From: Anaerolineae bacterium
Lineage (GTDB): Bacteria; Chloroflexota; Anaerolineae; JAAYZQ01
DNA: 64,000 bases
Assembly (NCBI GenBank): GCA_034435455.1
Contig: DAOTXL010000002.1
Span: forward strand, 39,023-103,022
Reading direction: 5' to 3'
The notes under the pieces were generated by a model. It saw nothing but the letters and a program-made list of their open reading frames with translations. It made no database searches and was not told the DNA's origin. The stretch's first letter is position 1, and each line of letters opens with the position of its first letter. The translations under genes were made by a program, and so were the position numbers. Of the stretch, positions 11,364-32,140 are shown piece after piece.

Positions 11364-12083
11364 GTGGGACGCATTCGTATCCTGCTGGCCGACGATCATG
11401 TGCTGGTGCGGGAGGGCACGCGGGAGCTGTTGGAGCGCGAACCGGACCTGGAGGTGGTGGCCGAGGCCGGTGACGGCCAGCAGGCCGTCGCCCTGGCCGC
11501 CGAATTGCGGCCCGACGTGGCCGTGTTGGACGCAGCCATGCCCGGTCTGAACGGCGTCGAGGCAGCCCGCCACATCAGGGCGGCCTGCCCGGACACAGCG
11601 GTGCTCATCCTCAGTGCCTACGACAGCGATGCCTACCTCTTTGCCGCGCTGGAAGCCGGGGCGACCGGCTATCTGCTCAAGAGCAGCCCGGCCCAGGAGC
11701 TGGTCCGCGCCGTGCGCACCCTGCACGCCGGCGGCTCGGCCCTGCATCCCGACATGGCCCGCAAGCTGGTGGACCGCTTCGCCCAACCTGGGGGCCGGGC
11801 GGCTGCTCCATCGCCGTCCCCCAACGGGGTCGAGGCCCTCAGCGATCGCGAGCTGGAGGTGCTGCGGCTCGCCGCCCAGGGCCTGACCAACCAGGACATT
11901 GCCCGCCGGCTGAACATCGGGCGGCGCACGGTCCAGTCGCACTTGGCCAGCATCTTTGCCAAGACCGGCAGCCAGTCGCGCACCGAGGCGGTGGTCGCCG
12001 CGTTGCGTAAGGGCTGGCTCAGCCTGGAGGAGACGGAGGGTGACGCACCCTGTGCTGGGAGACGGCGGCTGGCCGATGGCTGA
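11364..12083 (+). CDS. NarL/FixJ-family response regulator (REC + LuxR-type HTH)
   Basis: RIRILLADDHVLVREG…; C-terminal LuxR HTH; GTG start at 11364 with GGAGAGAG RBS (ORF track 11061..12083 upstream part not protein-like). Confidence 0.8.
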   Translation: MGRIRILLADDHVLVREGTRELLEREPDLEVVAEAGDGQQAVALAAELRPDVAVLDAAMPGLNGVEAARHIRAACPDTAVLILSAYDSDAYLFAALEAGATGYLLKSSPAQELVRAVRTLHAGGSALHPDMARKLVDRFAQPGGRAAAPSPSPNGVEALSDRELEVLRLAAQGLTNQDIARRLNIGRRTVQSHLASIFAKTGSQSRTEAVVAALRKGWLSLEETEGDAPCAGRRRLADG

Positions 12084-13551: not shown

Positions 13552-13655
13552 GGCGCCAAACCAGCGCACCCATTGGCAAGCTGTGGTGCAATATCCGTGT
13601 ATGGCGGCGAAGACGTGCGCACCAGCGCATTGGATGCGACATTGCCCGTGGTGTG

Positions 13656-13688
13656 AAAAAAACCGCCGGGGTCTGCCAGACCTCGGCG
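13656..13688 (-). terminator. Rho-independent terminator for the NrfD-type operon (hairpin ccgccgaggtc-tggca-gaccccggcgg followed by U7 on minus strand)
   Basis: Plus strand shows aaaaaaa then ccgccggggtctgccagacctcggcgg; minus-strand transcript ends with hairpin + UUUUUUU 70 bp after NrfD stop. Confidence 0.6.
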
Positions 13689-13760
13689 GTCTCGGCGGCC
13701 GGAGGGGCCGCAGGCCAAAAGCGTGGCGAGCCTACCCCGGCCCCGCGCTTTTTGGCTGGT

Positions 13761-14924
13761 TCAGGCCGCAACCGGTAGCCCGGCGTGTTCCGACTCGCTG
13801 GCAACCTCCTCTTTGAACACCGGGAAGTAGTGGGTGATCAACGTATACGCAACAACACCACTTGCCAGCAGACCGATGGTGACGGCAAACTCCATCCAGT
13901 GGGGGAAGTAGCTCCCCGTAGGCACCATCTGGCCGATGACGCTGACATCAAGGCGGTTAAGAATTAAGCCCCCGACCACCAGTAGCGCCCCCCAGAACAG
14001 CCCGGCAGCGCTCTGTCGTACTTTGGGGATGGCGAACAACACGGCTGGCAACAGCACGCCCCCTACCATTTCGAGCAAGAACAGATTGCTCCGCACACTT
14101 CCTTCGAACATCAATCCGAACTCACCGGCAACCAGCAATTCAACCACCTTGAGCACAAAGTAGATTCCCAGCACGTAGGGTACGGCGCTGGCTAATCCAG
14201 AGAGAAGGTCTTTCTCCAGAGGCCGTTTCAAGGCTTTCGCGCTGACCACCGACTCCAGGATCACCATCGCCAGCCCTACCGCCACCGCGGAGGTGAAAAA
14301 GAACACGGGCAGTAAGGAAGAATACCACAGTGGGTAGAGCCGGTAGCGCAGGAGCAGAAACAGCGAGCCTAACGAGGACTGGTGCAGAGTGGAGAGGATC
14401 ACCCCGATGATCACCAGGGGGATCTGGATGGCACGAATGATACGCAGGGGCACCTGCCAGCCAAAGCGTTCAAAGACCACCGGGCTAAACTCCAGGGCCA
14501 TGACCGTAGTGTAAAGCATCACGCACCAGCCCACCTCAAAGAGCACCGAGTGAAAGTTCCAATAGATAATCAGGTGCCAGATATGATGCGGCTTGGCCAG
14601 GTCGGCCAGCAAGCCCAGGATGACCAGCAGATAGCCCAGGAAGCCGGTCAGCAACGCTGGCCGAACAATGGGGTGATACTTTTTCAGATTAAAGATGTAG
14701 ACGGTCGCAGCCACCACAAACGCTCCGGCGCCCAAGGCCACACCTGAGACTACGTCGAAGCCGATCCACAGACCCCAGGGATAGCTATCGCTCAGATTGG
14801 TGGCACGGCCCAAACCCAGGGCAAACCGGGCTACCCAGATCGCCATGCCGATCACCGCTACGGCTATCAGGATCCATAGTCCCACTGGAAGAGCACGCTT
14901 CTGTACTTTGGTTGCCTTTGTCAT
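13761..14924 (-). CDS. NrfD/PsrC/HybB-family polytopic membrane subunit (quinone-interacting anchor)
   Basis: 387 aa, 8-10 TM helices, typical NrfD-family pattern. Confidence 0.75.
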   Translation of the reverse strand: MTKATKVQKRALPVGLWILIAVAVIGMAIWVARFALGLGRATNLSDSYPWGLWIGFDVVSGVALGAGAFVVAATVYIFNLKKYHPIVRPALLTGFLGYLLVILGLLADLAKPHHIWHLIIYWNFHSVLFEVGWCVMLYTTVMALEFSPVVFERFGWQVPLRIIRAIQIPLVIIGVILSTLHQSSLGSLFLLLRYRLYPLWYSSLLPVFFFTSAVAVGLAMVILESVVSAKALKRPLEKDLLSGLASAVPYVLGIYFVLKVVELLVAGEFGLMFEGSVRSNLFLLEMVGGVLLPAVLFAIPKVRQSAAGLFWGALLVVGGLILNRLDVSVIGQMVPTGSYFPHWMEFAVTIGLLASGVVAYTLITHYFPVFKEEVASESEHAGLPVAA

Positions 14925-14925
14925 G

Positions 14926-15687
14926 TTACCCCTCCTTCGCTTCAGGGTGAGCAGCGCTTTCTTTCTGCAGTCGCTCCCGACGCTGGAAGAACCAATAGAA
15001 TCCGCTCAGGACCACTGCCAATCCCCCGATCCCGTAAGGCACGTAGGAGACCACCTGCTCACTCAACTTCGTGACCGGCTCCGTGCCCACCGTCGGGAAG
15101 CCTAGCTCCTCGAAGGGCACCGGGGAGATGTACAACCAGGAAGTCCCTCCCACTTCATGTTCCCCGTAGATGTGTTGCACGTACTTGCCGCTACTGGCCT
15201 GAATGCGCTGCTTGGCCTCAAGCAGCAGAGCGTCGCGCTCTCCGAACTTGAGGGCACCCGAGGGGCAGTCAGAGACACACGCTGGCTCTAATCCGGCTGC
15301 CTGGCGATCTGCACAGAAGGTACACTTTTGTATAGAGGGCAAGAGCGCGTCCCAGTTGAGCTTTGGCACACCGAACGGGCAGGCCGTCATGCAGTAGCGA
15401 CAGCCGATGCATTTATGGGCGTCGTATACGACCGGTCCATTGGCCGTCTTTTGCAAGGCACCCACCGGGCAGGCTGAGACGCAGGCCGGGTGCTCGCAGT
15501 GCATACATTGCCGCTTGGTAGTGAACAAGCGTACACCGGGGAATAGGCCCATCTCAAAGCTGTGAATGCGGGTCCACAAGACCCTCTTCTCCTCCACCGG
15601 CACCCCCCGGTTTAGCGTACAGGCTGCCGTACAGGTCTCACAGCCAATGCAGCGGCCGATATCTACCAACATCGCAGATGTGCTCAT
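14926..15687 (-). CDS. 4x[4Fe-4S] ferredoxin electron-transfer subunit (PsrB/HybA-like) with C-terminal TM helix
   Basis: CIGCETCTAAC, CMHCEHPACVSACP, CIGCRYCMTACP, CTFC…CVSDCP; ATG 15687 with AAGGAGGAG RBS. Confidence 0.8.
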   Translation of the reverse strand: MSTSAMLVDIGRCIGCETCTAACTLNRGVPVEEKRVLWTRIHSFEMGLFPGVRLFTTKRQCMHCEHPACVSACPVGALQKTANGPVVYDAHKCIGCRYCMTACPFGVPKLNWDALLPSIQKCTFCADRQAAGLEPACVSDCPSGALKFGERDALLLEAKQRIQASSGKYVQHIYGEHEVGGTSWLYISPVPFEELGFPTVGTEPVTKLSEQVVSYVPYGIGGLAVVLSGFYWFFQRRERLQKESAAHPEAKEG

Positions 15688-15724
15688 TCTGGCACTCCTC
15701 CTTTCACTGTCCTCAACGCCCGGC

Positions 15725-18220
15725 TCACACGCGCTCCACCCGGCACTTGGCCGTTTTCCAGCCAGGCATCTCGGTATGCTCACCAGGATCGTCCAAGGTG
15801 AGGGCATTGGGCCTGGTCGTCCGCAATCCCTGGGTCGGAGAACTGGGGCCAGCGTGCGTCGGGATGTTCACGACCTTGGGATGAATCCGCTCCGTCAGCA
15901 CTGCGTGCATGACCACCGCCCCCCGGGGCGTGCTGACCTGGACCTGATCTCCGCTGGATAGGCCCAGATGGGCCGCCGTCTGGGGGTGCAATTCCACGAA
16001 CACCTCCGGTTCGATGGCCCTCGAAAGAACATCCCAGCGCGTCGCCCAGTGCATGTGGACGGCCGTGGGCTTGTTGGTGGTCATGATCAGTGGGTATTCC
16101 TCGCTCCAGTTGATGTTCTCGCTCTTGTCTTCGGGTTCCTCCTGGACGTCACGGAACTCGGGCAGGCCGGCGTGATGCCAGTTTTCGCCTATATCCACGT
16201 GGACCTTACCGTCAGGGGTCATGAACTTGGGCACCTCCGGGTCATCCGGGTTCATGAACAGGAAGGGCATGCCACCTTTGTCGGCCATCATCGGTGGGCA
16301 GGGGAAAGTGACGCCGCCCTTGGGACTCCATGCTTTCACGTTGTCCAGGGTCATCCCGGCATAGGGGTTCATTTGCGGCCCCATCTCTTGGGCTTTCGCC
16401 ATGGCCGTGGCCTCGTCCAGGCCCTGCTGCATTAACTGCGCCTTGACCGTCATGATCTGCATGTTGGTCATCATCATGCTGGTGACGGTCATGTAATAGT
16501 TGTAAATGGCTTCCGGCCCTTGAGAGAACATCTCGTACGGCCACAACGGTTTCTGGTACTCCGGGTTGTCCATGCCGTTCCCCGTGGTGGTCTCGGTGCA
16601 GAGTTCATCGCCGTAGACCCGCCGCCCCAATTCGTTCCAGATCCACCAGTAGGGCCTGGATTCGCCCAGGGACTCGATGGCCTTTTCCTTCCAGCGCACG
16701 GCCCCATTGCTGCCAGCCATCAGGTTGGAGCCCCCCTCCTCAAACTCGCTGCAAATCGGCAGGATGTAATGGGCATAGTCCGCCGTTCCGTCGTGGAACA
16801 TGGTGAGGTGAACCACCAGGCCCTCGGCCTTGAGCCGTTCCAGGCCCTGACGGAGGGCGTCGGAATTGGGCGTTCGGGCCAGCAGGCTGCCGCTGGCGAA
16901 GAGGACTTTGACGCGCCCCGCCACCATCCCTTCACGGGTCACGCTGGGGGGTTGGTCGCCGGGGTCATAGATGTCATCCACCTTGCCCGGGCCGAAGCGC
17001 CACCACTCGACCTTCATGCCGGTGGTGGGCAAATTCATCACCCCCACGACGCCGGGCTTGCCGTGGATGCCGCCGCCGGGCAGACCAAAAGCGCCCAACA
17101 CGACCGGGATGAGCATCACCGCCCGGCCGGCCTGGTAGCCGTTCGATTGAGCGCTCAACGCCGAACCCAAGACGAAAGCGGTCTTGCGCCCGGCCGCAGC
17201 CATCTCTCGGGCCAACTGGCGGATGGTATCGGCCGGCACCCAGGTGATCTGGGACACCGTCTCGGGATCATACTGGCTGACCAACTGCTTCAGCTTGTCC
17301 ACGTCGCCTTCCACCACATAGTCATTCAGGCGCGGATAGGTCAGGTTCTCGGCAAAGAGGACGTGGAGGATGCCCAGGGCCAGCGCCCCATCGGTGGCCG
17401 GGCGGATGGGGATGTACTGGTCGGCGCGGGCCGCCGAGGGAGTATAGCGCGGGTCGATGCAGACCACCTTGGCGCCATTGTCCTGGGCTTCCAGGATGAA
17501 TTGGAAAGCGACAGGCATGGTGCTGGCCCAGTTGCTGGCCCAGATCACGACGTATTTGGACTGCGGCAAGTCGGTGTCCAGGTTGCTGCGGAACATGTAG
17601 CCGAACAGCGATTTCGCCGCCCGCAAAAAGTTCCCCCCGCAGGCCTGGCAGCCCCCGTAGTGCGGCCGGGCGCTGAACGCCCGCTTGAAGCGATAGAGCA
17701 TGGCTAATCCCTCCGCCCGCACCCGGGGGGTCGTGTAGAAGGCCACCAACTCTTTCTCTTCCTCCGTCTGCTGGCCGACGCCGCCGCGATCCATCCAAGG
17801 CTGGCGCAGCTCTCGCAGCCGGGCGGCGATCTCGTCCAACGCCTGCTCCCAGCTCACCTGCACCCAGCCTTGCCCTTCTCGCTTCAGGGGATACAGGATG
17901 CGATCGGGGTTGTACGTGTCCCCCACGGCCGTCAGGCCTTTGACGCACAGCTTGCCCCCGGTGAAGCGGTCAGTGGCCAGGCCTTCCGCGTGGACGATCC
18001 GCCCGTCCTTCACGTAGACTGTCCGACCGCAGTGGTGCGTACAAGGGTTGTCGCAGAACGAGAGGCGTGGCTCGCCCTCCGCCCAGGAAGGGGCAACACC
18101 AGACTCCGTTGTGCGTGCAAACACCTCATCCGGCGAGCCGAACGTCTCCAGCAACGTCAAGCCTGTGACACCGGCTCCGGCGGCTTTCAGAAACTGCCTT
18201 CTGGTCATCTCGTGGCTCAT
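15725..18220 (-). CDS. Tat-dependent molybdopterin oxidoreductase catalytic subunit (PsrA/PhsA/ArrA-like) with unusual CX3CX3C motif and Met-rich insertion
   Basis: Tat signal MSHEMTRRQFLKAAGAG; FCDNPCTHHCGRT…KLCVKG; ATG 18220 with GGGGGAGG RBS; residues ~594-688 of ORF contain 17 Met. Confidence 0.8.
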   Translation of the reverse strand: MSHEMTRRQFLKAAGAGVTGLTLLETFGSPDEVFARTTESGVAPSWAEGEPRLSFCDNPCTHHCGRTVYVKDGRIVHAEGLATDRFTGGKLCVKGLTAVGDTYNPDRILYPLKREGQGWVQVSWEQALDEIAARLRELRQPWMDRGGVGQQTEEEKELVAFYTTPRVRAEGLAMLYRFKRAFSARPHYGGCQACGGNFLRAAKSLFGYMFRSNLDTDLPQSKYVVIWASNWASTMPVAFQFILEAQDNGAKVVCIDPRYTPSAARADQYIPIRPATDGALALGILHVLFAENLTYPRLNDYVVEGDVDKLKQLVSQYDPETVSQITWVPADTIRQLAREMAAAGRKTAFVLGSALSAQSNGYQAGRAVMLIPVVLGAFGLPGGGIHGKPGVVGVMNLPTTGMKVEWWRFGPGKVDDIYDPGDQPPSVTREGMVAGRVKVLFASGSLLARTPNSDALRQGLERLKAEGLVVHLTMFHDGTADYAHYILPICSEFEEGGSNLMAGSNGAVRWKEKAIESLGESRPYWWIWNELGRRVYGDELCTETTTGNGMDNPEYQKPLWPYEMFSQGPEAIYNYYMTVTSMMMTNMQIMTVKAQLMQQGLDEATAMAKAQEMGPQMNPYAGMTLDNVKAWSPKGGVTFPCPPMMADKGGMPFLFMNPDDPEVPKFMTPDGKVHVDIGENWHHAGLPEFRDVQEEPEDKSENINWSEEYPLIMTTNKPTAVHMHWATRWDVLSRAIEPEVFVELHPQTAAHLGLSSGDQVQVSTPRGAVVMHAVLTERIHPKVVNIPTHAGPSSPTQGLRTTRPNALTLDDPGEHTEMPGWKTAKCRVERV

Positions 18221-18263
18221 TGCATTGCCTCCCCCTTCTGTACTATGGTACGAAAAGATATGC

Positions 18264-18917
18264 TCAGTGGTTTCCTCCTGCATCCAATTGCTGCGCCAGG
18301 GTCGTCAGCAGCCCATCGGCGAGCCGGGCGACCGGCTTGTAGAACCGGGCGGCGTCCAGGGCGTACAGCTCGGTGCAAAACCGGGGCCCCCAGGCCAGCA
18401 AGTGCTCCTGAAGAAAGCGCCGGGCTATGTCCAGATATTGCTCTTCCCCGGTCTCCAGGAATACTCGCCCCAGGTAAGCCATGAAGCCCAGCTCCAGGCC
18501 AAAGTGATCGGGCGGGTAGTTACAGGCATGGATGCTCTGCACGCCGGATTCGGCCCAGAAGGCGCGAACCTGGTCCACCGACTCGCCCATCAGTAGTCCC
18601 TGGAACGTCTGCCCTCCCACGGTCAGGCGATCCCGATAAACCGACTCGTAGGGATGAACGGTCCGAGGTTGCGGCCCGACGAACAACGCGGCGAATTCCC
18701 GGCGCAGTTCGCCGTGCAGATCGGCCGCATCCCGCCCCCGTTGGGCTCGGGCGAACGCCCGCAGAGCCTCCAGCCCGTGGACCAGTTTGCCGTTGCTGCC
18801 CGGTGGCGCTGGCAGGTCCAGCTCTCCCTGCACCATCTCTGTGGCCAGGGCGAGAGGGGGCTCCTCCAAAAAGAGGGCCGCAACCATCCATTCCAACGAA
18901 ACCAGCGTTGGATCCAC
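18264..18917 (-). CDS. TorD/DmsD-family molybdoenzyme chaperone
   Basis: 217 aa, TorD-family helical pattern; immediately upstream of alpha subunit. Confidence 0.65.
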   Translation of the reverse strand: MDPTLVSLEWMVAALFLEEPPLALATEMVQGELDLPAPPGSNGKLVHGLEALRAFARAQRGRDAADLHGELRREFAALFVGPQPRTVHPYESVYRDRLTVGGQTFQGLLMGESVDQVRAFWAESGVQSIHACNYPPDHFGLELGFMAYLGRVFLETGEEQYLDIARRFLQEHLLAWGPRFCTELYALDAARFYKPVARLADGLLTTLAQQLDAGGNH

Positions 18918-19099
18918 TATCCTCCCCCATGCCTATTATACCGCAGGCGAGTACGGTCCGTCTATCGAGAAACTTCGACAGTTTCTGTAGGGAAGATACG
19001 GACAAGAAGGACAGGGGCCTGGTTCGACCGGACAACGGGCCGGCGGCCAGGCGCACGGTCGTCAGAACCAAGCGGTTTGCGTGGGGGAGGGGGAGTTGA

Positions 19100-19753
19100 T
19101 CAGCCCGGTGGGGTCAATCGGTGCTGGATAGCGAACTTGATGAGGCTGGGGAAATCGCTGATGCTCAGCTTTTTCATCAGGCGCTCGCGGTAGGTATCAA
19201 TGGTCCTCGGCGAAAGAAAGAGGATGTCGGCAATCTCGGCCCTCGATTGGCCCTCGACGAGGAGTTGCAGGACCTGGCGCTCGCGCGAGCTCAATCGCTC
19301 CAGCGGACTCTTGCTTGCGGCGGTTTCGTACCGGCCCACGTGGCTGTCGAGCAACGCGTCCACGGCATTCTCACTCAGGTATCGTCGTCCAGCATAGACG
19401 GCACGGACAGCGTTGACTACCTCGGTGCCGGCGGACTCTTTCAACAGGTAGCCGTAGGCTCCGGCGTGCAGCGCCTGGGTGATATCCTCGCTGGTGGAAT
19501 ACATGGAGAGGATGACGGTCCGCGCCGACGGGCAGAGCTGGCGGATCTGGCGCGTCGCTTCAAAGCCGTTCAGTTCGGGCATGGCCAGGTCCATGATGAC
19601 GACGTCGGGGCAGAGCCGTGCCACCTCGTCTACCGCCTCCTGCCCGTTGGCCGCATCCCCGACTACCTTGATGGTGCCCTGCGCCTCCAACAGCAGCCGC
19701 AACCCGTCGCGAACCACGGCATGATCATCGGCCAGGAACACGGTAATGGTCAT
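19100..19753 (-). CDS. NarL/FixJ-family response regulator
   Basis: MTITVFLADDHAVVRDG…LuxR HTH; ATG 19753 in ATGA overlap with kinase stop. Confidence 0.8.
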   Translation of the reverse strand: MTITVFLADDHAVVRDGLRLLLEAQGTIKVVGDAANGQEAVDEVARLCPDVVIMDLAMPELNGFEATRQIRQLCPSARTVILSMYSTSEDITQALHAGAYGYLLKESAGTEVVNAVRAVYAGRRYLSENAVDALLDSHVGRYETAASKSPLERLSSRERQVLQLLVEGQSRAEIADILFLSPRTIDTYRERLMKKLSISDFPSLIKFAIQHRLTPPG

Positions 19754-21363
19754 CGCGGCACCTCCACAACGACTCGCGTGCCATGCCCGGGGCGAGATTC
19801 GACGTGGCAATGACCGCCCACGGCCCGGGCCCGCTCGGCCATGCTCAACAGCCCCCAGCCGTGGTGGTCTTCCGGCACGGCCAGATGGGCGGGGTCAAAG
19901 CCGATGCCGCTATCCGCGACGGTCAGGCGCACGGTGCTGCTGTCTGTCTCCAGGGTCACCGTCACCTGTGTAGCCTGCGCGTACTTGGCGACGTTGGTCA
20001 ATGCCTCCTGGGCGATGCGAAACAGGGCGGTCTCAACCAAAGTGCTCAGGCGGGGGGCTGGTTCCTCACCCTGTACACCGACGGCAACGCCCACCCTCGA
20101 GGCAACCTGCGCCCCGTACCAACGCAAGGCTGCGACGATTCCGTGGTTGTCCAAAACCGGCGGCCGCAGATCGGCCATCACGTTGCGGATACACAAACCT
20201 GTCTGCCCGACGAGGGCCAGCGAGTCCTCCAGGCGGGAGCGGAGCGGAGCGACTGCCTCCCCGGTCATCTGCATCCGCACGTAACTCAGGTTGATGCTGA
20301 GCGCAGTCAGATTCCGGCCCACCTGATCGTGTAATTCGCGCGCCAGCCGCTGCCGTTCGGTCTCTTCGGCCTCCGCCAGCCGCATGGCCAGTGCTCGCAG
20401 TCGCTCACCCTGCCGCCCGACTATCTCAAATAACCGGGCGTTCTCGATAGCCAGCGCAGCCTGGTCGGCCAGGATGGAAAAAAGCTGCCGGTCATCCTGG
20501 CCAAAGGCGTCTAGCCTGGCGCTCTCGGCGTTGAGCACCCCGATGACCTGTTCGCCTGCTTTGAGCGGCACGCACAATTCGGAACGCGTCCCGGAGTGAG
20601 CGCTCACGTAGCGCGCCTCCCGGCTCACGTCGGGCAGGTAGATGGCCTCGCCGCTGTGGGCCACGGCCGTGGTGATGCCCCGTGCGCCATCGATGGGCAG
20701 CCGGGAGATCTTGGGTGGTTCGTCTGCTGGCGCATAAGCCTGGCATACCAATTCCTTCCCTTCCTCATCTATCAGCCACAGGTGGCACAACTGGAACTCT
20801 AGCACATGTTCGGCGGCGTTCACCACGGCCTGGGCGATCCATGACTTTTCCCGAGAAAGCACCAGTTCCCGACTCAGGAAACCGATGGCCGCCAGTTTCG
20901 CCTCCAACCGCCGTTCTGCGGTCACATCGTGGCAGATTGCGATGATCTGGGCGACCTGACCCTGTTCATCGTGCAGCGGGAAAGCAGAGACGTCAAAGAA
21001 GAAAGGTCTCTCTTCCAGGCCACGGAGGACGTGGGATGCCCGGATCGGTTCGCCCTTCTCCCAAACCTGATGCAGAGGACAAACGACCTCCAGTTCAGCG
21101 CGAGGTTCACAGAGCTGGTAAACCACTTCGTAACATCGGCGGCCGATCACTTCCCCTCGCGTGTATCCCATCTGGCGCAGAAAGGCTGAATTCACATCTC
21201 TTACACGATAGTCGCGATCAATGACCATCACCTGGTCTTGCATGCCATTGACCATGCACCGAAAGTACTCGCACACCCTGTTCAAGCGATCGTCTGACAT
21301 GGCATCCTCGACAGACTCCATCAAGTGCTCTGCCAAGGCAGTATTTACTGTCTTCACAGCCAT
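19750..21363 (-). CDS. Cytoplasmic sensor histidine kinase PAS-GAF-HisKA_3-HATPase
   Basis: No TM; PAS then GAF then H-box ELHDQVGRNLTAL and HATPase; ATG 21363 with GGAGGT RBS. Confidence 0.75.
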   Translation of the reverse strand: MAVKTVNTALAEHLMESVEDAMSDDRLNRVCEYFRCMVNGMQDQVMVIDRDYRVRDVNSAFLRQMGYTRGEVIGRRCYEVVYQLCEPRAELEVVCPLHQVWEKGEPIRASHVLRGLEERPFFFDVSAFPLHDEQGQVAQIIAICHDVTAERRLEAKLAAIGFLSRELVLSREKSWIAQAVVNAAEHVLEFQLCHLWLIDEEGKELVCQAYAPADEPPKISRLPIDGARGITTAVAHSGEAIYLPDVSREARYVSAHSGTRSELCVPLKAGEQVIGVLNAESARLDAFGQDDRQLFSILADQAALAIENARLFEIVGRQGERLRALAMRLAEAEETERQRLARELHDQVGRNLTALSINLSYVRMQMTGEAVAPLRSRLEDSLALVGQTGLCIRNVMADLRPPVLDNHGIVAALRWYGAQVASRVGVAVGVQGEEPAPRLSTLVETALFRIAQEALTNVAKYAQATQVTVTLETDSSTVRLTVADSGIGFDPAHLAVPEDHHGWGLLSMAERARAVGGHCHVESRPGHGTRVVVEVPR

Positions 21364-21526
21364 TGTGTACCTCCGTCCTCTCCTCACCATCAGAACACCT
21401 CCACCAGGAGTGTCCAGTGGCCGATGCTATAGCCCAAGTCCAGCGCCGTCCAGGCCAGGGCAGGCCTGAAGGCGTAAGGCATCCCGCAGTGTATCATTCA
21501 TCACCACCTTGCCTTGTCGCATCGCC

Positions 21527-22771
21527 TCAGGGGCACAGGATGATCCCCTGCGCCCACAAGCAATCCCCGCACGCGGGGAACTCGTTGCCGAAGCAGTCTT
21601 CCTCGTTCGATTCAGAGTACTGGCAGCCACCACAGTCGACGCAGGGCGAAAAGTCGAATTCCACGACCCGCCGGCGGAACTGCTGGTATTTGGTGTGCTG
21701 CCAGACACGCGTGATGGCCTCGTCGTTGACATCGCCCACGACATAGCGCCGGATCGCTTTCTCCCGGCCGAGGATGTAGCAGGTGTAAGAGTGCATGAGG
21801 GCGATGCATGGACTCACCCCACCGTCCCAGGCTACAGCTACGGCGCCTTCGCGCACAAAGCGGCAGTAGCCCTTGAGACTGCCAGAGTGCTCAAGAAGAG
21901 GGTCGATCGTTCCACCATGCCGCAGGAGCCCTAACAGAGGTTCCAGGACTTCAGGGCGAGCATCAATCCGCGGCAGCACAATCTCCGGATACCACCGCGA
22001 GCGTGTCCGGGGATGCGGGCTGCCCGCTGCCAAAGAGTACAGGATCTCCTCGCTGAACTCTTGAGCGTAGGGCAGTACGTTGGTCACGACGATGAAACTG
22101 GCCTCCAGCGAGTGGGCCAGGCGCCGGAGGTTCGGCAGCTCCGACAGGTTACGCCGCGTGACCACGAACTCCAGGCCAATCTCCGGATTGCCACGAGGGT
22201 TCATGCGCCGCAGCGCCAGCAGGTGGCCGACATTTCGCTGTACCAGGTGCAGGTCCGTGCCTGCCCTGATGCCTGCGTTACTTTCCGGCGAGGCCCCGTC
22301 GACCGAGATGACCAGCGTGCCCAACCCAGCCTGAACCAACCCTTCGGCCATCCCCTGGTCCAGGAGTAGCCCGTTGGTGATCAACTCCGTCCTGGCCCCC
22401 AGCTCCCCGGCCAGAGCCACCATCTCCACGATGTCGGGGTGCAGCAACGGCTCGCCCAGCCCCCAGAAGGCCACGGTCTGTAGCGCAGGCGTCTCTCGCA
22501 GGCCCTCGACAAGCCGCCGATAGGTGTCCGTCGCCATGGTCCCGCCCGGCTCATCCCAGGAGCGACGGATGCAGATGGGGCAGTTCAGATTGCAGGCCGT
22601 GGTCGGTTCGACGTAGACCTGGCGCAGCGGCGGATCGGCCGGGCGGAGCAGTAACCCGTCTGCTGTCTCTTCGATCTGGAACCCGGTGCCGGGTGTCAGT
22701 CCCCAGCGGCGCCGCTCTTCCTCCGGTAACCACAGCGCCCCGTCCCGGCCTACGACCTGCTCTTCGCTCAT
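21527..22771 (-). CDS. Radical SAM / SPASM-domain enzyme with N-terminal AbrB/MazE-like swapped-hairpin domain (paralog 1)
   Basis: N-term GALWLPEEERRRWGLTPGTGFQIEETADGLLLRP fits AbrB-N pattern; CNLNCPIC radical SAM triad; C-terminal Cys-rich SPASM (CVDCGGCQYSE…CGDC). Confidence 0.8.
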   Translation of the reverse strand: MSEEQVVGRDGALWLPEEERRRWGLTPGTGFQIEETADGLLLRPADPPLRQVYVEPTTACNLNCPICIRRSWDEPGGTMATDTYRRLVEGLRETPALQTVAFWGLGEPLLHPDIVEMVALAGELGARTELITNGLLLDQGMAEGLVQAGLGTLVISVDGASPESNAGIRAGTDLHLVQRNVGHLLALRRMNPRGNPEIGLEFVVTRRNLSELPNLRRLAHSLEASFIVVTNVLPYAQEFSEEILYSLAAGSPHPRTRSRWYPEIVLPRIDARPEVLEPLLGLLRHGGTIDPLLEHSGSLKGYCRFVREGAVAVAWDGGVSPCIALMHSYTCYILGREKAIRRYVVGDVNDEAITRVWQHTKYQQFRRRVVEFDFSPCVDCGGCQYSESNEEDCFGNEFPACGDCLWAQGIILCP

Positions 22772-22780
22772 GCGCTTCCC

Positions 22781-24679
22781 CTATACCAACGCCACCACCA
22801 GCCAGCCGGCCAGCAGGACGAACAGCCCGGCGGTGAGCAGCTTGACCGCCGCCGCCCGGCGGTTGATGAACTGCGCCAACTGCTCCGAGGTGGTGCCCAG
22901 GTAGGCCAGCACAAAGACCACCACCAGCGGCAGGATGAACATCAGATTGTAGAGCAGCAGGTAGGCAGCAGCCCGTGCTTTCAGGTTGGGCACGCCCAAC
23001 ACGAAAATGATGGTCGGCAGGTAGACCTGGCCGGTGCAGGCCAGCTCGATGAACGAGATGACCATGCCCGTGACCAAGGCTACCGGCACAAAGGCGCGCA
23101 ACCCGGCTCCCTCGCGGATGACACGGTTGATCCACCGGCGCAGGCGCAGCGGCAGCTTGAGCCGCATCTCCTCCGGCCGGCCACGGCGGGCCTGCCACCA
23201 GTCGTACAGGCTGCCGGCAGCCAGGAAGAGGCACAGGACCGCCGTCAGGCCGTACACCCAGCGGCTGATGGCGCTCAGGAAGGGCAGCGAGGCCAGGAAC
23301 TTGAGCAGGCCAAAGCCGACCCCCAGGTAGGTGAGGAACACGCCCAGGGCAAAGGCCGCGCCCACGGCCAGTACCTCGCGCCGGCCACGGCCGACGAAAG
23401 CCAGGTAGGAGATGAAAAAGACGATGGTGGCAAAGGCACAGGGGTTCAACCCGTCCACCAGCCCGGCGGCCAGCACGGTGAGCACCCCGAAGGAGCGGAA
23501 GCGCTCCACGATGCTGCCCGCGGCCTGGTCCTGGGCGGCCTCCCAGCCCTCCCAGGCAGGCTCGGCCCCGGTCGCGGCGTAGCGAGCGACGAGCGCCTCC
23601 AGGGCCTGGGCGGTCAGTTCCTGGTCCACCAGCGCCTCGTCGCCGACGAACACCGCTGGGGCGATCAGGCGTTTCGCCTCCGGCACGCCGGCCTGTGCCC
23701 CCAGCCACTCGCACAGCGCCGCCTCGGCCTTGACATCGAACTCGTGGACGACGAGCTGCGGATACTGCCCCTGCAAGTAGTTCAGGTCCAGGCTCACCCG
23801 GTCGCATTCACGGCAGCCGGGTTGGTAAAAGTAGGCCAGGTGGATGGGAGGCGCGTCCTCGACGACGGTGGCTGCCGGCGTTGGGGTGGGTAGTTCTACC
23901 TGGGGCAGGTCCACGCCCCCCTGGGCCAGATAGAAGTCGATCAACTCCTCCAACCGGGCCTCGATCTCCGCATTGCCCAGGAGGGCATAGTCGCCGATGA
24001 AAATCTCGGGCATATCGCCGTACTCGAGGCCGTACTGAGCCTCGAGGGCCAGCATCTCTTCGTAGTAGCCCTTTTCCAGATCGAACTCATAGATCTCGAC
24101 CTGGCCTTTCTCGTACTTGTCCAGGATCGGTGGCAGGATCTCCTCTTTCAGCACCAGGCAGGAGTCGCAGTTGCTGTCGTAGAACAGCCAGAAGCGTACC
24201 ACCGCCTCGGCGCCCGCTTCCGGCGTGGGTGTAGGCGGCGGAACCGTGGGTGTGGCAGTGGTGTCCAGCCAGGCCTCCAGGCCGGGGATGGCTGGATAAT
24301 CCAGGCCGCCGGCCGCCAGGTGCTGTTCGATCAGCCCCGGCAACTGCTGGGGGATGTCGTAAGAGCCGACCAGCACCCGGTCGCCGATGAACAGCATCGG
24401 CACGCCACGCTGATCGTCGGGCACGCGCTGGGCTTCCATGGCCGCCCGCCACAACTCATAGCCTGCCGGGTCCGACACCTCGATGGCCACCACCTGGAGT
24501 TGGTCGCCATACTTTTCCTGCAGCGGCGGCAGGGTCTCGGTCAGCACCACGTGGCAATGGGGGCAGGTTTCGGCCCAGAACAACACGGCGCGCACCACAG
24601 GCTCCTCGGCGTGGGCAGCCGGCAACGCCGGGAGCAGCAGGAGCAGCGGCAACAACAGCCATCTCATATTTCGTTCCAT
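22781..24679 (-). CDS. Signal-peptide protein with three thioredoxin-fold domains (CPHC, CDSC, CREC) fused to C-terminal CcdA/DsbD-type transmembrane domain
   Basis: Cleavable signal MRWLLLPLLLLLPALPAAHA; three Trx-like units separated by Pro/Thr linkers; C-terminal 6 TM with CcdA Cys motifs GLNPCAF and ELACTGQ. Confidence 0.75.
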   Translation of the reverse strand: MERNMRWLLLPLLLLLPALPAAHAEEPVVRAVLFWAETCPHCHVVLTETLPPLQEKYGDQLQVVAIEVSDPAGYELWRAAMEAQRVPDDQRGVPMLFIGDRVLVGSYDIPQQLPGLIEQHLAAGGLDYPAIPGLEAWLDTTATPTVPPPTPTPEAGAEAVVRFWLFYDSNCDSCLVLKEEILPPILDKYEKGQVEIYEFDLEKGYYEEMLALEAQYGLEYGDMPEIFIGDYALLGNAEIEARLEELIDFYLAQGGVDLPQVELPTPTPAATVVEDAPPIHLAYFYQPGCRECDRVSLDLNYLQGQYPQLVVHEFDVKAEAALCEWLGAQAGVPEAKRLIAPAVFVGDEALVDQELTAQALEALVARYAATGAEPAWEGWEAAQDQAAGSIVERFRSFGVLTVLAAGLVDGLNPCAFATIVFFISYLAFVGRGRREVLAVGAAFALGVFLTYLGVGFGLLKFLASLPFLSAISRWVYGLTAVLCLFLAAGSLYDWWQARRGRPEEMRLKLPLRLRRWINRVIREGAGLRAFVPVALVTGMVISFIELACTGQVYLPTIIFVLGVPNLKARAAAYLLLYNLMFILPLVVVFVLAYLGTTSEQLAQFINRRAAAVKLLTAGLFVLLAGWLVVALV

Positions 24680-25062
24680 ATCATTTCCTCCATTGTCTCG
24701 CTATCGATCCAATCGTCACAAACGTTCTGGATAGATAGCGAAAGCTTTGGAGGAGGAGGCGCGGGCGCCAGCCACGTGGATAGGTCGTGGATGACTGGCA
24801 GGGCAACAGCCAGGATCAGAATCGGAGGGATGGGCATTCCCAGAGCGCCGGGCAGCCCGGTACAGCAGAACAGGCTGCAGCCGGGCATCTGAGCTTGCGG
24901 TTCCGGCGTGGTGTCCGGCTGGCAGCAGCGCTGGCAGCCGGAGACGGACCGCGCCGTCTGAGCGCGAAGGCAGAGGGGGCCGGCCACGAGGTGCAGGGTT
25001 AGCCCACCCAAAATGGCGACGACGCACAAGACGACGAACAGGCGCAGGATGCCGTATCTCAT
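24664..25062 (-). CDS. Small Cys-rich membrane protein (N-terminal TM; CLRAQTARSVSGCQRCCQPD…GCSLFCCTG)
   Basis: ATGA overlap with upstream gene stop (25059-25062) and 16-nt overlap with downstream gene start support expression; 2 hydrophobic segments; 9 Cys. Confidence 0.5.
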   Translation of the reverse strand: MRYGILRLFVVLCVVAILGGLTLHLVAGPLCLRAQTARSVSGCQRCCQPDTTPEPQAQMPGCSLFCCTGLPGALGMPIPPILILAVALPVIHDLSTWLAPAPPPPKLSLSIQNVCDDWIDSETMEEMIWNEI

Positions 25063-25589
25063 GGCATGAGCTCCGCCAACCGCCGCCCGCCCTCGGCATA
25101 CTCCGGCTCCGCCAGGTGGGGACAGGCCGCCAGGCCCAGTTCGCCGAACAGCAATCGGAAGGCAAAGGCCAGGCAGGTCCGTTCGCCGCAGTCACCGCAG
25201 TTGAGCCGGGGCAGCAGCCGGTAGGCGTCCAACGGCCCCAACTGTTGCCGCCGCTCGTAACAGGGCTCGATCTCGGCCCGGCGACGCCAGGTGTCGTTGC
25301 ACAGCTCCTGGAACCAGCGCAGTTGGGCCTCGGCGTCCTCCTCGCCGTCCACTTTGGCCATCACTGCCACGTGCGGGTAAAAGGTCAGGATGCGCCCGCC
25401 CCGCTTGACGGTCACGGTGCCGGCGCCGGGGTTGTACATCAGGTTGGGCACGACGGCGTTCAGGTAGGGGAACACCTCCCCTACCTGATCCCACAGCTCG
25501 GCAATGATCCGGTTCTTGGTCGGGTCGGCAATGCAGTCCATCACCTGGATGATGGTAAAGCCGCGCAGCAGTACGCCGTCGTCGCTCAT
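25059..25589 (-). CDS. DUF3786-like protein with C-terminal CODH/ACS-type Fe-S cluster domain (paralog 1)
   Basis: C-terminal LLPRLNCGDCGERTCLAFAFRLLFGELGLAACPHL matches the CX2CX4C…CP Fe-S domain of corrinoid FeS protein N-termini; paralog of 31585..32136. Confidence 0.65.
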   Translation of the reverse strand: MSDDGVLLRGFTIIQVMDCIADPTKNRIIAELWDQVGEVFPYLNAVVPNLMYNPGAGTVTVKRGGRILTFYPHVAVMAKVDGEEDAEAQLRWFQELCNDTWRRRAEIEPCYERRQQLGPLDAYRLLPRLNCGDCGERTCLAFAFRLLFGELGLAACPHLAEPEYAEGGRRLAELMP

Positions 25590-25598
25590 GGTCCTTTT

Positions 25599-26777
25599 CT
25601 ACGGGCAGCGGATGATGCCCTGCGCCCACAGGCAATCGGCGCAGGAAGGCACGTTGCCCAGGCAATCCTCGTTGTTCTCGGCATAGTCGCAGGCCAGGCC
25701 ACAGTCCACGCAGTACATGAAGCGAAAATCGCGCACCCTGGCCCGAAAACGCACATATTCTTCCGACTGCCAGATGTCGGCCAGCGCCTGCTCGTTCACG
25801 TTGCCCAACAGGTAGCGGCTCACATTTTTGCGCCGGCCATAGATGTAGTAGGGGTAGCTGTGCATCAGGGGGTAGCAGGGGCTGACCCCGCCATCCCAGC
25901 CGATGACCACGGCCCGGTCCTCGACGAAGCGGCACTGCCGCCAGGCCCCCCACTTCATGCGCGGCAGGTCCATCCGCCCCCAGCCGATACCGCCTGCCTC
26001 TTTCACCGGCCAGCTCAGGGGCAGGCCCAGCGGCTCATCGCTGTCGTACAGGATCTCATCGCCCATGGCTTCGGTGTGGGGCAACAGATTGCTGACCAAC
26101 ACTTTGGAGGCTCCCAACCCGGCGGCGATCTCCCGCAGGTGCGGCAGATGGTCCCGGTTGGAGCGGGTGGCGACGAACTCCAGCCCCAGGTTGAGGGGCA
26201 ACCCGCCGCGCTGTTCGGCCAGGCGCATCAGGCGGCGGGCATTGTCCAGCACCCGCTCCAACCCGCCGACGATGCGCGCCCCGTCGTAGGCCTGGGTATG
26301 CACCGTGTCCAGGGAGATAACCACCCAATCCACCGCTGCCGCCAGCAGGCAGTTGGCCATCGCTTCGTCCAGCAGCAGGCCGTTGGTCGTCACCGTCAGC
26401 GGCACCCCCAGCGTCGAGGCCAGGGCCAGCATCTCCGGCAGGCGGGGGTGGACCAGCGGTTCGCCGTAGCCGCCCAAAACCAGGCGCCGTAGGTCCGGCA
26501 GAGCACGCAACCCGGTGATGGTCGCCTCGAACGTCTCCCAGGCCATGTCGCCAGGTGGGTCACTCCATACCTGGCGGACACACACAGCACAGTTCAGGTT
26601 GCAGCGGGTTGTCACCTCCAGGTAGGCCTTGCGGGTGTCGGGGCGGACGCGGTGCAGTCGCAACCCGTCCTCAAACGATTCGACGACGACCCGGGCCCCT
26701 GGCTCCAGCCCCAGACGGGCCACCTGCTCAGCCGGCAGAATCAGCCGTCCATCCACCTCTATTGTCAATTCAGGCAT
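25599..26777 (-). CDS. Radical SAM / SPASM-domain enzyme with N-terminal AbrB/MazE-like domain (paralog 2)
   Basis: LTIEVDGRLILPAEQVARLGLEPGARVVVESFEDGLRLHRV; CNLNCAVC; SPASM Cys cluster; colinear with 21527..22771 protein. Confidence 0.8.
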   Translation of the reverse strand: MPELTIEVDGRLILPAEQVARLGLEPGARVVVESFEDGLRLHRVRPDTRKAYLEVTTRCNLNCAVCVRQVWSDPPGDMAWETFEATITGLRALPDLRRLVLGGYGEPLVHPRLPEMLALASTLGVPLTVTTNGLLLDEAMANCLLAAAVDWVVISLDTVHTQAYDGARIVGGLERVLDNARRLMRLAEQRGGLPLNLGLEFVATRSNRDHLPHLREIAAGLGASKVLVSNLLPHTEAMGDEILYDSDEPLGLPLSWPVKEAGGIGWGRMDLPRMKWGAWRQCRFVEDRAVVIGWDGGVSPCYPLMHSYPYYIYGRRKNVSRYLLGNVNEQALADIWQSEEYVRFRARVRDFRFMYCVDCGLACDYAENNEDCLGNVPSCADCLWAQGIIRCP

Positions 26778-30657: not shown

Positions 30658-30888
30658 TCAAGACAGCTCCTTGAGATAGCGGATCGGCACGTCGAACTCG
30701 ATCCGGAACCGTCCATAGTCCTGGATATAGAACGTGAACTCCTGGCTGGCGGGTCGCAGGGCGTTCCAGAGGTCCCACGGCACATAAATGGTGCCGTAGC
30801 GCCGGGCGAACTCGCCGATCTGGATGGCCAGATAGTCCTCTGGATTGTCAGGTTGGCCCAACCGACCGGTTGGGACCTCGGCAGCCAC
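30658..30888 (-). CDS. Small protein with weak 'IQIGE' domain similarity, GTG start
   Basis: AIQIGEFARRYGTIYVPWDLWNAL resembles the domain in 27589..27897 and 31003..31578; GTG start directly after TGA-TGA of upstream mini-ORF. Confidence 0.35.
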   Translation of the reverse strand: MAAEVPTGRLGQPDNPEDYLAIQIGEFARRYGTIYVPWDLWNALRPASQEFTFYIQDYGRFRIEFDVPIRYLKELS

Positions 30889-31584: not shown

Positions 31585-32136
31585 TTACCCCTCCCGCCGG
31601 CCAATGGCCGGCAGATCGACCGCCAGCAGGTCTGCCAGTTGCGCCTGTTGTTCGGCATATTGGGGTTCGCTCAGCAACGGGCAGTCCTGCAACTGCACCT
31701 GGCCGGCTACCAGCTTGTTGGCAAAGACAAAGCAGGTAGCCTGGCCGCAGGCCTTGCAGTTGGTGCGGGGCAGCAGCTTATAGACCTCCATCAACCCCGG
31801 CCGGCGGCGCACCTCGTAGCTCGGTTCGATCTCGGCCCGCTGCTCCCAGGTGCGGTTGACCAGTCGGATCAGCCCTTCGACCTCCTGGATGGCTGCGTCC
31901 CGGTCAGGAACATTGCTGACGGCGATTTCGTAAGGGTGAAACGCAATGTTGTGCCCGCCCTTCTTCCAGGTCAGAGCAGGGGCAGCGACATTATAGACCG
32001 CGCCGCGCAGGGTCGCGTTCAGGTAAGGCAACACCTCGCGGATGTCGGTCACCAACCGGGCGACGGCGCTGAACCGCTCTGCCCCCGGATCACAGGGTGG
32101 GGTGGACACTTCCAGGTCGTACTTTTCGATCAACAT
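31585..32136 (-). CDS. DUF3786-like protein with CODH/ACS-type Fe-S cluster domain (paralog 2)
   Basis: LLPRTNCKACGQATCFVFANKLVAGQVQLQDCPLL; ATG 32136 with GGGAGGAAAG RBS; ORF-track N-extension is read-through. Confidence 0.65.
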   Translation of the reverse strand: MLIEKYDLEVSTPPCDPGAERFSAVARLVTDIREVLPYLNATLRGAVYNVAAPALTWKKGGHNIAFHPYEIAVSNVPDRDAAIQEVEGLIRLVNRTWEQRAEIEPSYEVRRRPGLMEVYKLLPRTNCKACGQATCFVFANKLVAGQVQLQDCPLLSEPQYAEQQAQLADLLAVDLPAIGRREG

Positions 32137-32140
32137 CAGA

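What the first reader, a model, noticed from the sequence alone, without database searches (positions are those of the whole stretch)
21527..22771. Radical SAM-SPASM enzymes carrying an N-terminal AbrB/MazE-like domain (two paralogs)
Both rSAM proteins (21527..22771 and 25599..26777) begin with roughly 45 residues matching the AbrB-N/MazE/SpoVT swapped-hairpin pattern: GxLxLPxExxxRxGLxPGxxxxxExxxDGLxLxxV. This precedes the CNLNCxxC radical SAM motif. Known peptide-modifying rSAMs usually recruit their substrates through PqqD-like recognition elements. An AbrB-type domain in this position would be a different substrate- or DNA-binding solution. It could also make the enzyme autoregulatory.
Basis: partly seen in the sequence, partly recalled or inferred. 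Interest (0 to 1): 0.8.

Follow-up and report, generated by a model that had tools for sequence, protein, structure and literature searches.

The report
AbrB-like domain on radical SAM maturases
Two radical SAM/SPASM enzymes in this window do start with a small AbrB/MazE/SpoVT-type domain, but hundreds of relatives in the known "tungsten cofactor oxidoreductase maturase" family share this unannotated feature, and what the domain does is still unknown.

Summary
Both minus-strand ORFs (21527..22771, 414 aa; 25599..26777, 392 aa) are radical SAM + SPASM proteins. Their first ~46 residues form an AbrB/MazE/SpoVT-type beta-beta-alpha-beta-beta unit. Three lines of evidence agree: Pfam PF04014 matches across the family, reciprocal profile hits to standalone PF04014 proteins, and an AlphaFold model whose top 18 PDB matches are all AbrB-superfamily chains.

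The fusion is not special to this window. It is present in about 80 of 94 relatives examined, across Chloroflexota, Armatimonadota, Thermodesulfobacteriota, Spirochaetota, Bacillota and one archaeon. These include proteins that pass NCBIfam TIGR04317, whose model starts just after this domain.

The enzymes are not evident peptide (RiPP) maturases. The 25599 paralog is sister to a clade embedded in AOR–rSAM–MoaD–MoaD operons, several behind Moco/tungsten riboswitches. The 21527 paralog belongs to a subfamily found in arsenic-type islands (ArsR, ACR3, ArsM, ArsC, thioredoxins).

No PqqD-like element is present. My best reading is that the domain is an accessory module that pairs two enzyme chains and offers a docking face. 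DNA binding, as in a trigger enzyme, remains a serious rival. I found no paper describing this fusion. Interest is moderate.

The parts
22634..22771 (-). N-terminal AbrB/MazE/SpoVT-like unit (residues 1-46) of rSAM paralog 1. It contains LPEEERRRWGL, which matches the AbrB helix motif ExRRxLG.
   Evidence: translation; PF04014 E=0.037 at residues 6-47; seven listed homologs carry a precomputed PF04014 hit; R19/R20/R21/W22/G23 conserved at 75/64/87/90/96% in this subfamily.
21527..22633 (-). Radical SAM core (CNLNCPIC) and SPASM domain of paralog 1, which belongs to the subfamily found in arsenic-type islands.
   Evidence: Radical_SAM 54-174, SPASM 303-383; TIGR04317 312.9 bits, cutoff 380; neighbourhoods.
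26640..26777 (-). N-terminal AbrB/MazE/SpoVT-like unit (residues 1-46) of rSAM paralog 2.
   Evidence: PF04014 E=0.0055 on the full protein, 8e-5 on the isolated domain; helix 16-22, strands 29-35 and 38-44; fold matches to AbrB, SpoVT and MazE.
25599..26639 (-). Radical SAM core (CNLNCAVC) and SPASM domain of paralog 2, sister to the AOR-linked TIGR04317 clade.
   Evidence: TIGR04317 366.8 bits over residues 47-392, cutoff 380; invariant C59/C63/C66 plus C282, C356, C359, C363, C372, C379, C382, C391; nearest solved folds are SPASM/twitch enzymes.
25059..25589 (-). 176-aa protein with a C-terminal PF04060 Fe-S domain; a recurrent neighbour of these rSAM genes.
   Evidence: PF04060 E=6.5e-10; weak match to the NF011065 MobB/FeS protein; present in 9 loci.
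24664..25062 (-). It overlaps both neighbouring genes by a few bases.
   Evidence: no family; homolog only in L012, 56% identity.
22781..24679 (-). 632-aa protein with thioredoxin-like domains and a membrane region resembling DsbD or ArsG, lying between the two paralogs.
   Evidence: (homologs in 7 loci).

Best explanation
What it is (high confidence, about 0.9): each protein is a radical SAM/SPASM enzyme of the TIGR04317/TIGR04311 "metalloenzyme maturase" lineage. Its first ~46 residues are one AbrB/MazE/SpoVT-type beta-beta-alpha-beta-beta unit, joined to the catalytic core by only ~5 conserved residues (R-P-D-x-R).

How it most likely works (inferred, about 0.45): one such unit cannot close the swapped-hairpin barrel on its own. 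I therefore expect the domain to pair with a second copy, giving a homodimer, or a heterodimer where two paralogs sit together, as they do here. The barrel would hold two catalytic units together. Its conserved Arg-rich helix face would dock an acidic partner, either the protein being matured or a companion such as the PF04060 Fe-S protein. It would not act as a free DNA-binding arm.

The domain is accessory, not catalytic. Several lineages have lost it or deleted its helix while keeping an intact enzyme.

Shown: the fold assignment, the spread of the fusion, and the genomic contexts. Inferred: dimerisation, from established knowledge of the fold. Guessed: the identity of the binding partner.
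For: Fold and family.

Conserved fusion: the top 120 hits of each paralog are nearly all full length. 80 of 94 family ORFs in the fetched loci carry the domain by HMM, and members span several phyla.

Short, conserved junction: R45 81%, P46 80%, D47 96%. In the full-length model the domain is predicted with pLDDT 83-89 and overall pTM 0.89.

Accessory nature:
- The Sporomusa malonica protein (362 aa, no N-domain) still scores 424.8 bits on TIGR04317.
- Armatimonadota versions lack 7 residues covering the helix.
- No standalone AbrB-like gene lies near the members that lack the domain.

Against a dedicated regulator role:
- Both window genes are operon-internal, with 6 and 9 nt upstream.
- AOR-linked relatives sit mid-operon (AOR-rSAM-MoaD-MoaD). 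In three of the loci scanned, that operon lies behind a Moco/tungsten riboswitch upstream of AOR.
- Arsenic-type relatives already have ArsR genes beside them.
- The paralog-2 subfamily has a net negative N-domain (mean -2.1) and weak Arg conservation.
- In P0155 the domain is internal, between an ArsM domain and the rSAM core.

Paralog pairs recur in L060, L095, L116, L125, L155 and L163.
Against: - Nearly all characterised AbrB-superfamily domains bind DNA, which sets a prior in favour of nucleic-acid binding.
- Basic residues at the positions of AbrB R23/R24 are strongly conserved in the paralog-1 subfamily (R-R-R-W-G). An RR pair and the G-R of the first hairpin are conserved in the AOR-linked clade.
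- No dimer was modelled, and no partner was identified computationally.
- The ArsM fusion is a single metagenomic gene call with an internal Met at the junction. It could be a read-through artefact.
Confidence: 0.45

Rival explanations
1. Trigger enzyme. The AbrB-type barrel formed by two chains binds DNA as in AbrB, SpoVT and MazE, so the maturase also represses or activates its own operon. This would resemble PutA with its N-terminal ribbon-helix-helix domain, or SpoVT with its AbrB domain plus a sensor domain. The Fe-S/SAM state of the enzyme would act as the signal.
For: - The closest relatives of the domain outside the family are standalone PF04014 proteins, and the fold matches are DNA-binding domains.
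- R19/R20/R21 are conserved at 75/64/87% in the paralog-1 subfamily, similar to standalone AbrB-like proteins (76/31/56%).
- The AOR-linked clade keeps DExGR...RR, resembling AbrB/SpoVT VDELGRVVIPxExRR (the AbrB sequence is recalled from memory).
- The domain is present in some lineages and absent in others, as with the PutA DNA-binding domain (the PutA comparison is from my own knowledge).
Against: - The genes are operon-internal.
- Several AOR operons have a riboswitch, and the arsenic-type islands have ArsR.
- The position matching AbrB R15 is Glu in 37% of the paralog-1 subfamily. The paralog-2 subfamily is acidic with degenerate Arg positions.
- The helix is deleted in Armatimonadota versions.
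- The linker is only 5 residues long.
- I did not search upstream regions systematically for a conserved operator.
Confidence: 0.3
2. Substitute for an RRE. The half-barrel recognises a peptide or protein substrate by beta-strand complementation and replaces the PqqD-like recognition element. On this reading the enzymes modify a ribosomal peptide or protein encoded nearby.
For: - The domain occupies the N-terminal position that the RRE has in SuiB-type SPASM enzymes, which are among the nearest solved folds.
- No PqqD-like match is present.
- Small conserved ORFs lie beside some family members: the 48-50 aa and 65-76 aa families.
Against: - No small ORF is conserved across the family. The commonest neighbours are AOR and MoaD-like genes, or arsenic-type genes.
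- The 132-aa candidate is a membrane protein restricted to the closest relative.
- Members without the domain keep the same neighbourhoods.
Confidence: 0.12
3. Binder of a small anionic ligand or RNA. The Arg-rich face binds an oxyanion or phosphate-bearing molecule (tungstate, molybdate, arsenate, or a pterin phosphate), or an RNA. That would link the AOR/Moco contexts and the arsenic contexts.
For: - Both kinds of context involve oxyanion-forming elements.
- The Arg cluster is conserved.
- The GLxxG(D) cradle-loop motif is shared with the pterin-binding double-psi barrel of molybdopterin enzymes. The weak cross-hits to PF01568 are not significant.
Against: No AbrB-fold domain that I know of binds such ligands. 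The cross-hits are at chance level (E about 0.2-1).
Confidence: 0.08

Closest known systems
NCBIfam TIGR04317 'tungsten cofactor oxidoreductase radical SAM maturase' and its sister model TIGR04311 (the Cmo-type gene next to aor)
   Same: These are the best-scoring families for both proteins (366.8 and 312.9 bits). Both proteins have the same rSAM + SPASM core and the Cys-rich C-terminus ending in CxDCLWAQxIxxCP. Members that pass the cutoff carry the same N-terminal domain: Anaerolinea thermophila at 467.6 bits, plus Levilinea, Bellilinea and a Methanomassiliicoccales archaeon.
   Different: Both window proteins fall below the 380-bit cutoff. No AOR gene lies in the 64-kb window. The family model starts after the N-domain, so the domain is not part of the family definition. 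As far as I could find, the family has no experimentally shown reaction.
AbrB / Abh / SpoVT / MazE swapped-hairpin DNA-binding domains (Pfam PF04014)
   Same: Same ~46-residue beta-beta-alpha-beta-beta unit, the same G-x-hydrophobic-x-hydrophobic-P ... R-x-x-G-L ... G motif, and structural superposition at TM 0.7-0.83. SpoVT also joins this domain to a larger C-terminal domain.
   Different: Here the partner domain is a complete radical SAM/SPASM enzyme joined by a 5-residue linker. DNA binding and dimerisation are untested. The basic contact residues are only partly kept.
RRE-dependent SPASM maturases (SuiB, CteB, and PqqE with PqqD)
   Same: An rSAM-SPASM core with an extra N-terminal small domain in the same position. 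SuiB and PqqE are among the nearest solved structures.
   Different: The N-domain here is not a PqqD-like winged helix. No conserved precursor peptide is present, and the contexts point to a Mo/W enzyme or to arsenic metabolism rather than RiPPs.
Trigger enzymes with a small N-terminal dimeric DNA-binding domain, such as PutA with its ribbon-helix-helix (from my own knowledge)
   Same: A ~45-residue domain of a type typical of antitoxins, which needs a partner chain to fold. It sits at the N-terminus of a large enzyme and is present in only part of the family.
   Different: A different fold (AbrB versus RHH). There is no evidence of DNA binding here, and the genes are not at the operon start.

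Membership tests
AbrB/MazE/SpoVT superfamily (Pfam PF04014) | The window sequences themselves reach the Pfam gathering score (24.7 bits) | tested here: not met
   Full proteins score 17.1 and 14.4 bits. The isolated N-domain of the 25599 protein scores 22.9 bits, E=8e-5. These are just below threshold, and PF04014 is the only family matched in that region.
AbrB/MazE/SpoVT superfamily (Pfam PF04014) | Homology at profile level, in both directions | tested here: met
   51 of 69 family N-termini hit PF04014, best 4e-10. The N-terminus profile retrieves 1417 proteins, mostly 60-130 aa. Six of seven such short hits sampled match PF04014 at E<=0.001, five above the gathering score. PDB hits are 2glw at E=7e-5 and the SpoVT N-domain.
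AbrB/MazE/SpoVT superfamily (Pfam PF04014) | beta-beta-alpha-beta-beta topology that superposes on solved members | tested here: met
   The model has pLDDT 83, with helix 16-22 and strands 30-35 and 38-43. The top 18 Foldseek PDB matches are all AbrB, Abh, SpoVT, MazE, Sso7c4 or C68, with TMq 0.59-0.83. The first hairpin is only weakly formed in the monomer model.
AbrB/MazE/SpoVT superfamily (Pfam PF04014) | Barrel closed by two interdigitating units (dimer) | not testable with these tools
   Only monomer prediction was available. Dimerisation is inferred from what is known about the fold.
AbrB/MazE/SpoVT superfamily (Pfam PF04014) | DNA binding through basic residues of the first loop and helix | tested here: inconclusive
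   Column statistics: the paralog-1 subfamily has R19/R20/R21 at 75/64/87%, but Glu in 37% at the position matching AbrB R15. The paralog-2 subfamily has R19 24%, R21 44% and net charge -2.1. Binding itself cannot be tested here.
NCBIfam TIGR04317 (W_rSAM_matur, equivalog) | Score at or above the curated cutoff of 380 bits | tested here: not met
   366.8 bits (25599 protein) and 312.9 bits (21527 protein). Relatives with the same N-domain do pass: 384-467.6 bits.
NCBIfam TIGR04317 (W_rSAM_matur, equivalog) | CxxxCxxC radical SAM motif plus a SPASM auxiliary-cluster domain | tested here: met
   Pfam Radical_SAM and SPASM match in both proteins. The alignment has invariant C59/C63/C66 and C282, C356, C359, C363, C372, C379, C382, C391.
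NCBIfam TIGR04317 (W_rSAM_matur, equivalog) | Gene next to an aldehyde:ferredoxin oxidoreductase (AOR-family tungsten enzyme) | tested here: not met
   No AOR homolog lies anywhere in the window (phmmer). By contrast, 51 of 87 related loci have AOR within 6 kb, mostly as AOR-rSAM-MoaD-MoaD.
RRE-dependent RiPP radical SAM maturases | PqqD-like recognition element | tested here: not met
   No PqqD-like Pfam match at E<=0.1. The N-domain fold is AbrB-like, not a winged helix.
RRE-dependent RiPP radical SAM maturases | Conserved precursor peptide gene beside the enzyme | tested here: not met
   The 132-aa ORF is a Cys-rich membrane protein found only in the window and L012. No small ORF is shared across the family.

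The most novel reading that the evidence does not exclude
The most novel reading has two parts.

(1) The AbrB-type unit could turn a radical SAM/SPASM enzyme into a DNA-binding trigger enzyme, or it could pair two different paralogs into a heterodimeric maturase.

(2) The subfamily of the 21527 protein could be an undescribed oxygen-independent enzyme of arsenic metabolism. It sits in arsR-arsP-trx-acr3-arsM-[rSAM]-arsC rows, and one gene call fuses it to ArsM. Possible chemistry includes forming or cleaving a C-As bond.
Probability: 0.25. Interest if true: 0.8.

Novelty: new variant of a known kind. Interest (0 to 1): 0.5.

Why it matters
SPASM radical SAM enzymes are usually thought to find their substrates through PqqD-like elements or through the core itself. 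This work shows that a whole named but uncharacterised family carries an AbrB-type domain in that position.

That gives a concrete handle on what these "tungsten cofactor oxidoreductase maturases" bind and how they assemble. It also shows that the current family model and genome annotations miss the domain.

If the domain binds DNA, these would be the first radical SAM trigger enzymes of this kind. If it binds a protein, it would be a new kind of recognition module.

The side observation may be the more useful lead. One subfamily lives in arsenic-resistance operons of anaerobes. To my knowledge, the only known C-As lyase (ArsI) needs oxygen, so an oxygen-independent candidate would be of interest.

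Tried and rejected
- Literature. Searches for AbrB or SpoVT with radical SAM/SPASM, for TIGR04317/TIGR04311, for AOR with cmo, and for arsenic with SPASM or radical SAM found nothing relevant. ArsS and ArsL are different radical SAM enzymes. I could not compare sequences with them.
- Split-gene test. I looked for standalone AbrB-like genes next to family members that lack the N-domain and found none.
- The 132-aa ORF as substrate. Rejected as a general partner, because it occurs only in the closest relative and looks like a membrane protein.
- Riboswitch or other RNA in the window. Only a partial 16S rRNA reached threshold.
- Upstream operator motif. I extracted 260 nt upstream of AOR in 39 loci. 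The visible shared element turned out to be the Moco riboswitch. I did not go on to a systematic palindrome search.
- Net charge as a proxy for DNA binding. It does not discriminate: standalone AbrB-like proteins average about 0.
- Long multi-stretch hits of the N-domain profile, such as P0246 and P0299. These are repetitive beta-sandwich proteins and are spurious.
- Domain placement in the full-length model. I could not inspect how the N-domain packs on the core, because coordinates and PAE are not returned.

Full report
**The observation**

The window carries two minus-strand ORFs, 21527..22771 (414 aa, "paralog 1") and 25599..26777 (392 aa, "paralog 2"). They are 42% identical over their whole length, including the first 50 residues. 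Both have Pfam Radical_SAM and SPASM domains and the CNLNCxxC motif.

The only Pfam family touching the first ~46 residues is PF04014 (MazE_antitoxin / SpoVT-AbrB). It is sub-threshold on the full proteins (E=0.0055 and 0.037). No PqqD-like family was reported.

**Is the N-terminus really AbrB-like?**

I collected homologs of both paralogs: 798 and 1284 proteins at E<=1e-10. The best 120 of each are nearly all full length, so the N-terminus is conserved. The evidence then runs as follows:
- I aligned 69 N-termini (A1). Scanned one by one, 51 of the 69 hit PF04014 (best 4e-10), 14 hit AbrB-like and 9 hit MraZ. The isolated N-terminus of paralog 2 gives E=8e-5.
- A profile of A1 finds the tandem AbrB-like protein 2glw (E=7e-5) and the SpoVT N-domain in the PDB.
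- Against 1.84 billion representative proteins the same profile finds 1417 hits at E<=1e-3, mostly proteins of 60-130 aa. Six of seven such short hits sampled match PF04014 at E<=0.001, five above the gathering score. Hits of 190-300 aa are fragments of the same rSAM family.
- AlphaFold gives helix 16-22 and strands 29-35 and 38-44. The domain has pLDDT 83-89, both alone and within the full protein, whose overall pLDDT is 86 and pTM 0.89.
- Foldseek of the 50-residue model returns AbrB, Abh, SpoVT, MazE, Sso7c4 and C68 as its 18 best PDB matches, with query TM 0.59-0.83.

**What the enzymes are**

The best NCBIfam models are TIGR04317 ("tungsten cofactor oxidoreductase radical SAM maturase"; 366.8 and 312.9 bits, cutoff 380) and TIGR04311. 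The TIGR04317 match starts at residue 47, so the family model does not cover the N-domain.

Relatives that pass the cutoff carry the same N-terminal extension:
- Anaerolinea thermophila, 467.6 bits
- Levilinea saccharolytica, 422 bits
- Bellilinea caldifistulae, 402 bits
- a Methanomassiliicoccales archaeon, 405 bits

The Sporomusa malonica protein passes at 424.8 bits without the domain. The nearest solved structures are SPASM/twitch enzymes (DesII, SkfB, BlsE, SuiB, PqqE, MoaA, anSME) at TM of only about 0.5.

**Distribution**

A scan of one genome per species found 537 relatives. The best 80 come from Chloroflexota, Armatimonadota, Syntrophaceae/Thermodesulfobacteriota, Spirochaetota, Bacillota/Halanaerobiales and one archaeon.

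An HMM of the N-domain detects it in 80 of 94 family ORFs in the fetched loci. A few more have a divergent version that is visible by alignment.

The domain is missing or truncated in Sporomusa, Coprothermobacterota, Fusibacter and some other Bacillota. Armatimonadota versions lack seven residues covering the helix. No standalone AbrB-like gene lies near the members that lack it.

**Genomic context**

Among 87 non-redundant loci, 51 have an AOR gene and 46 a MoaD-like gene within 6 kb. The usual order is AOR-rSAM-MoaD-MoaD on one strand with short gaps. In 7 of 11 loci scanned, a Moco/tungsten riboswitch (RF01055) lies directly upstream of AOR.

The window has no AOR and no riboswitch. Paralog 2 lies in a block also seen in relatives L003 and L012: SufC, SufD-like, a P5C-reductase-like gene, rSAM, and a 176-aa PF04060 Fe-S protein.

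Paralog 1 belongs to a subfamily found in arsenic-type islands:
- Of 32 such metagenome loci of 5 kb or more, 21 carry ArsR, ACR3/SBF, ArsP_1, Thioredoxin_3, ArsC (LMWPc), ArsM or DsbD genes.
- One gene call (P0155) has ArsM (350 bits, cutoff 263) fused in front of the AbrB-like unit and the rSAM core. It sits in an arsR-arsP-trx-acr3-[arsM-rSAM]-trx-arsC row.
- The window itself has ACR3 (463 bits), ArsR, Trx3 and an ArsP_1-like permease at 46.7-51.4 kb.

The window also holds two TAT-exported molybdopterin oxidoreductases with TorD-like chaperones and an XdhC gene.

**What the domain does**

This part is inference. A single AbrB-type unit cannot close the barrel, so pairing with a second unit is expected from what is known of the fold.

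Points favouring a protein-level, accessory role:
- the five-residue conserved junction
- loss of the domain, or of its helix, in lineages that keep the enzyme
- the operon-internal position of the genes
- the presence of other regulators, namely a riboswitch or ArsR
- the acidic, Arg-poor paralog-2 subfamily
- the internal position of the domain in the ArsM fusion

Points favouring DNA binding:
- the superfamily prior, since nearly all characterised members bind DNA
- the strongly conserved R-R-R-W-G in the paralog-1 subfamily
- GR...RR in the AOR-linked clade, at or near AbrB's contact positions

I rate dimerisation plus docking at about 0.45, trigger-enzyme DNA binding at about 0.30, an RRE-like substrate-recognition role at about 0.12, and other ligands at about 0.08.

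**Novelty**

I found no paper on this fusion, nor on SPASM enzymes in ars operons. However, precomputed Pfam annotations already flag PF04014 on some members, and the enzyme family itself is named. I file this as a new variant of a known kind, of moderate interest. The arsenic link is the more promising side lead.

Noticed in passing
window 21527..22771; loci L008, L011, L101, L111, L113, L124, L130, L133, L144, L148, L149, L161, L163; protein P0155: The subfamily of the 21527 protein sits in arsenic-type operons (ArsR, ACR3, ArsP_1, Thioredoxin_3, ArsC, ArsM, DsbD) in 21 of 32 metagenome loci of 5 kb or more. One gene call fuses ArsM directly to it. I found no literature on a SPASM enzyme in ars operons.
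   Followed up: partly
window 46715..51454 (minus strand): An arsenic-type gene row within the window itself: a DGC-domain protein, ACR3 arsenite efflux transporter (47111..48271, TIGR00832 463 bits), ArsR, Thioredoxin_3 and an ArsP_1-like permease.
   Followed up: partly
L013 7334-7451, L078 7380-7499, L084 7306-7436, L088 7302-7425, L031 158-268, L075 3675-3785, L050 3905-4014: Moco/tungsten riboswitches (RF01055) lie directly upstream of the AOR gene in the AOR-rSAM-MoaD operons of relatives. None is present in the window.
   Followed up: yes
window 30658..30888 (minus strand): A 76-aa ORF with no Pfam match has homologs lying directly upstream of the rSAM gene in L008, L025 and L026, and downstream of it in L027. 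Conserved motifs are GR-x-G-x-P-[ED]-x-PE and FY-x-x-x-YG-[RK]-F. Its function is unknown.
   Followed up: partly
window 25059..25589 and 31585..32403 (minus strand): Two proteins with a C-terminal PF04060 Fe-S domain. The 176-aa one recurs beside these rSAM genes in 9 loci. It weakly matches the C-terminal half of NF011065 ('MobB/FeS domain protein'), which hints at a link to Mo/W cofactor handling. JGI names one cluster member 'ArsR family metal-binding transcriptional regulator'.
   Followed up: partly
window 21527..26777; loci L060, L095, L116, L125, L155, L163: Two family paralogs lie next to or near each other in several unrelated loci. This raises the possibility that they work as a pair.
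   Followed up: no
window 62645..64000 (plus strand): A bacterial 16S rRNA gene (RF00177, 1315 bits) is cut off by the end of the window. The closest protein relatives point to an uncultured Anaerolineaceae bacterium (L012, 83% identity).
   Followed up: no
window 7951..18932 (minus strand): Two TAT-signal molybdopterin oxidoreductases (8607..11045 and 15725..18283), each preceded by a TorD-like chaperone gene. The second also has 4Fe-4S and NrfD-like subunits (13761..15807). A histidine kinase/response regulator pair (19100..21390) lies between this block and the rSAM cluster. These enzymes are possible targets of the maturation genes.
   Followed up: no
window 24664..25062 (minus strand): A 132-aa Cys-rich ORF with predicted membrane segments overlaps both neighbouring genes by a few bases. 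It is conserved only in the closest relative, L012, at 56% identity, compared with 83% for the adjacent rSAM.
   Followed up: yes
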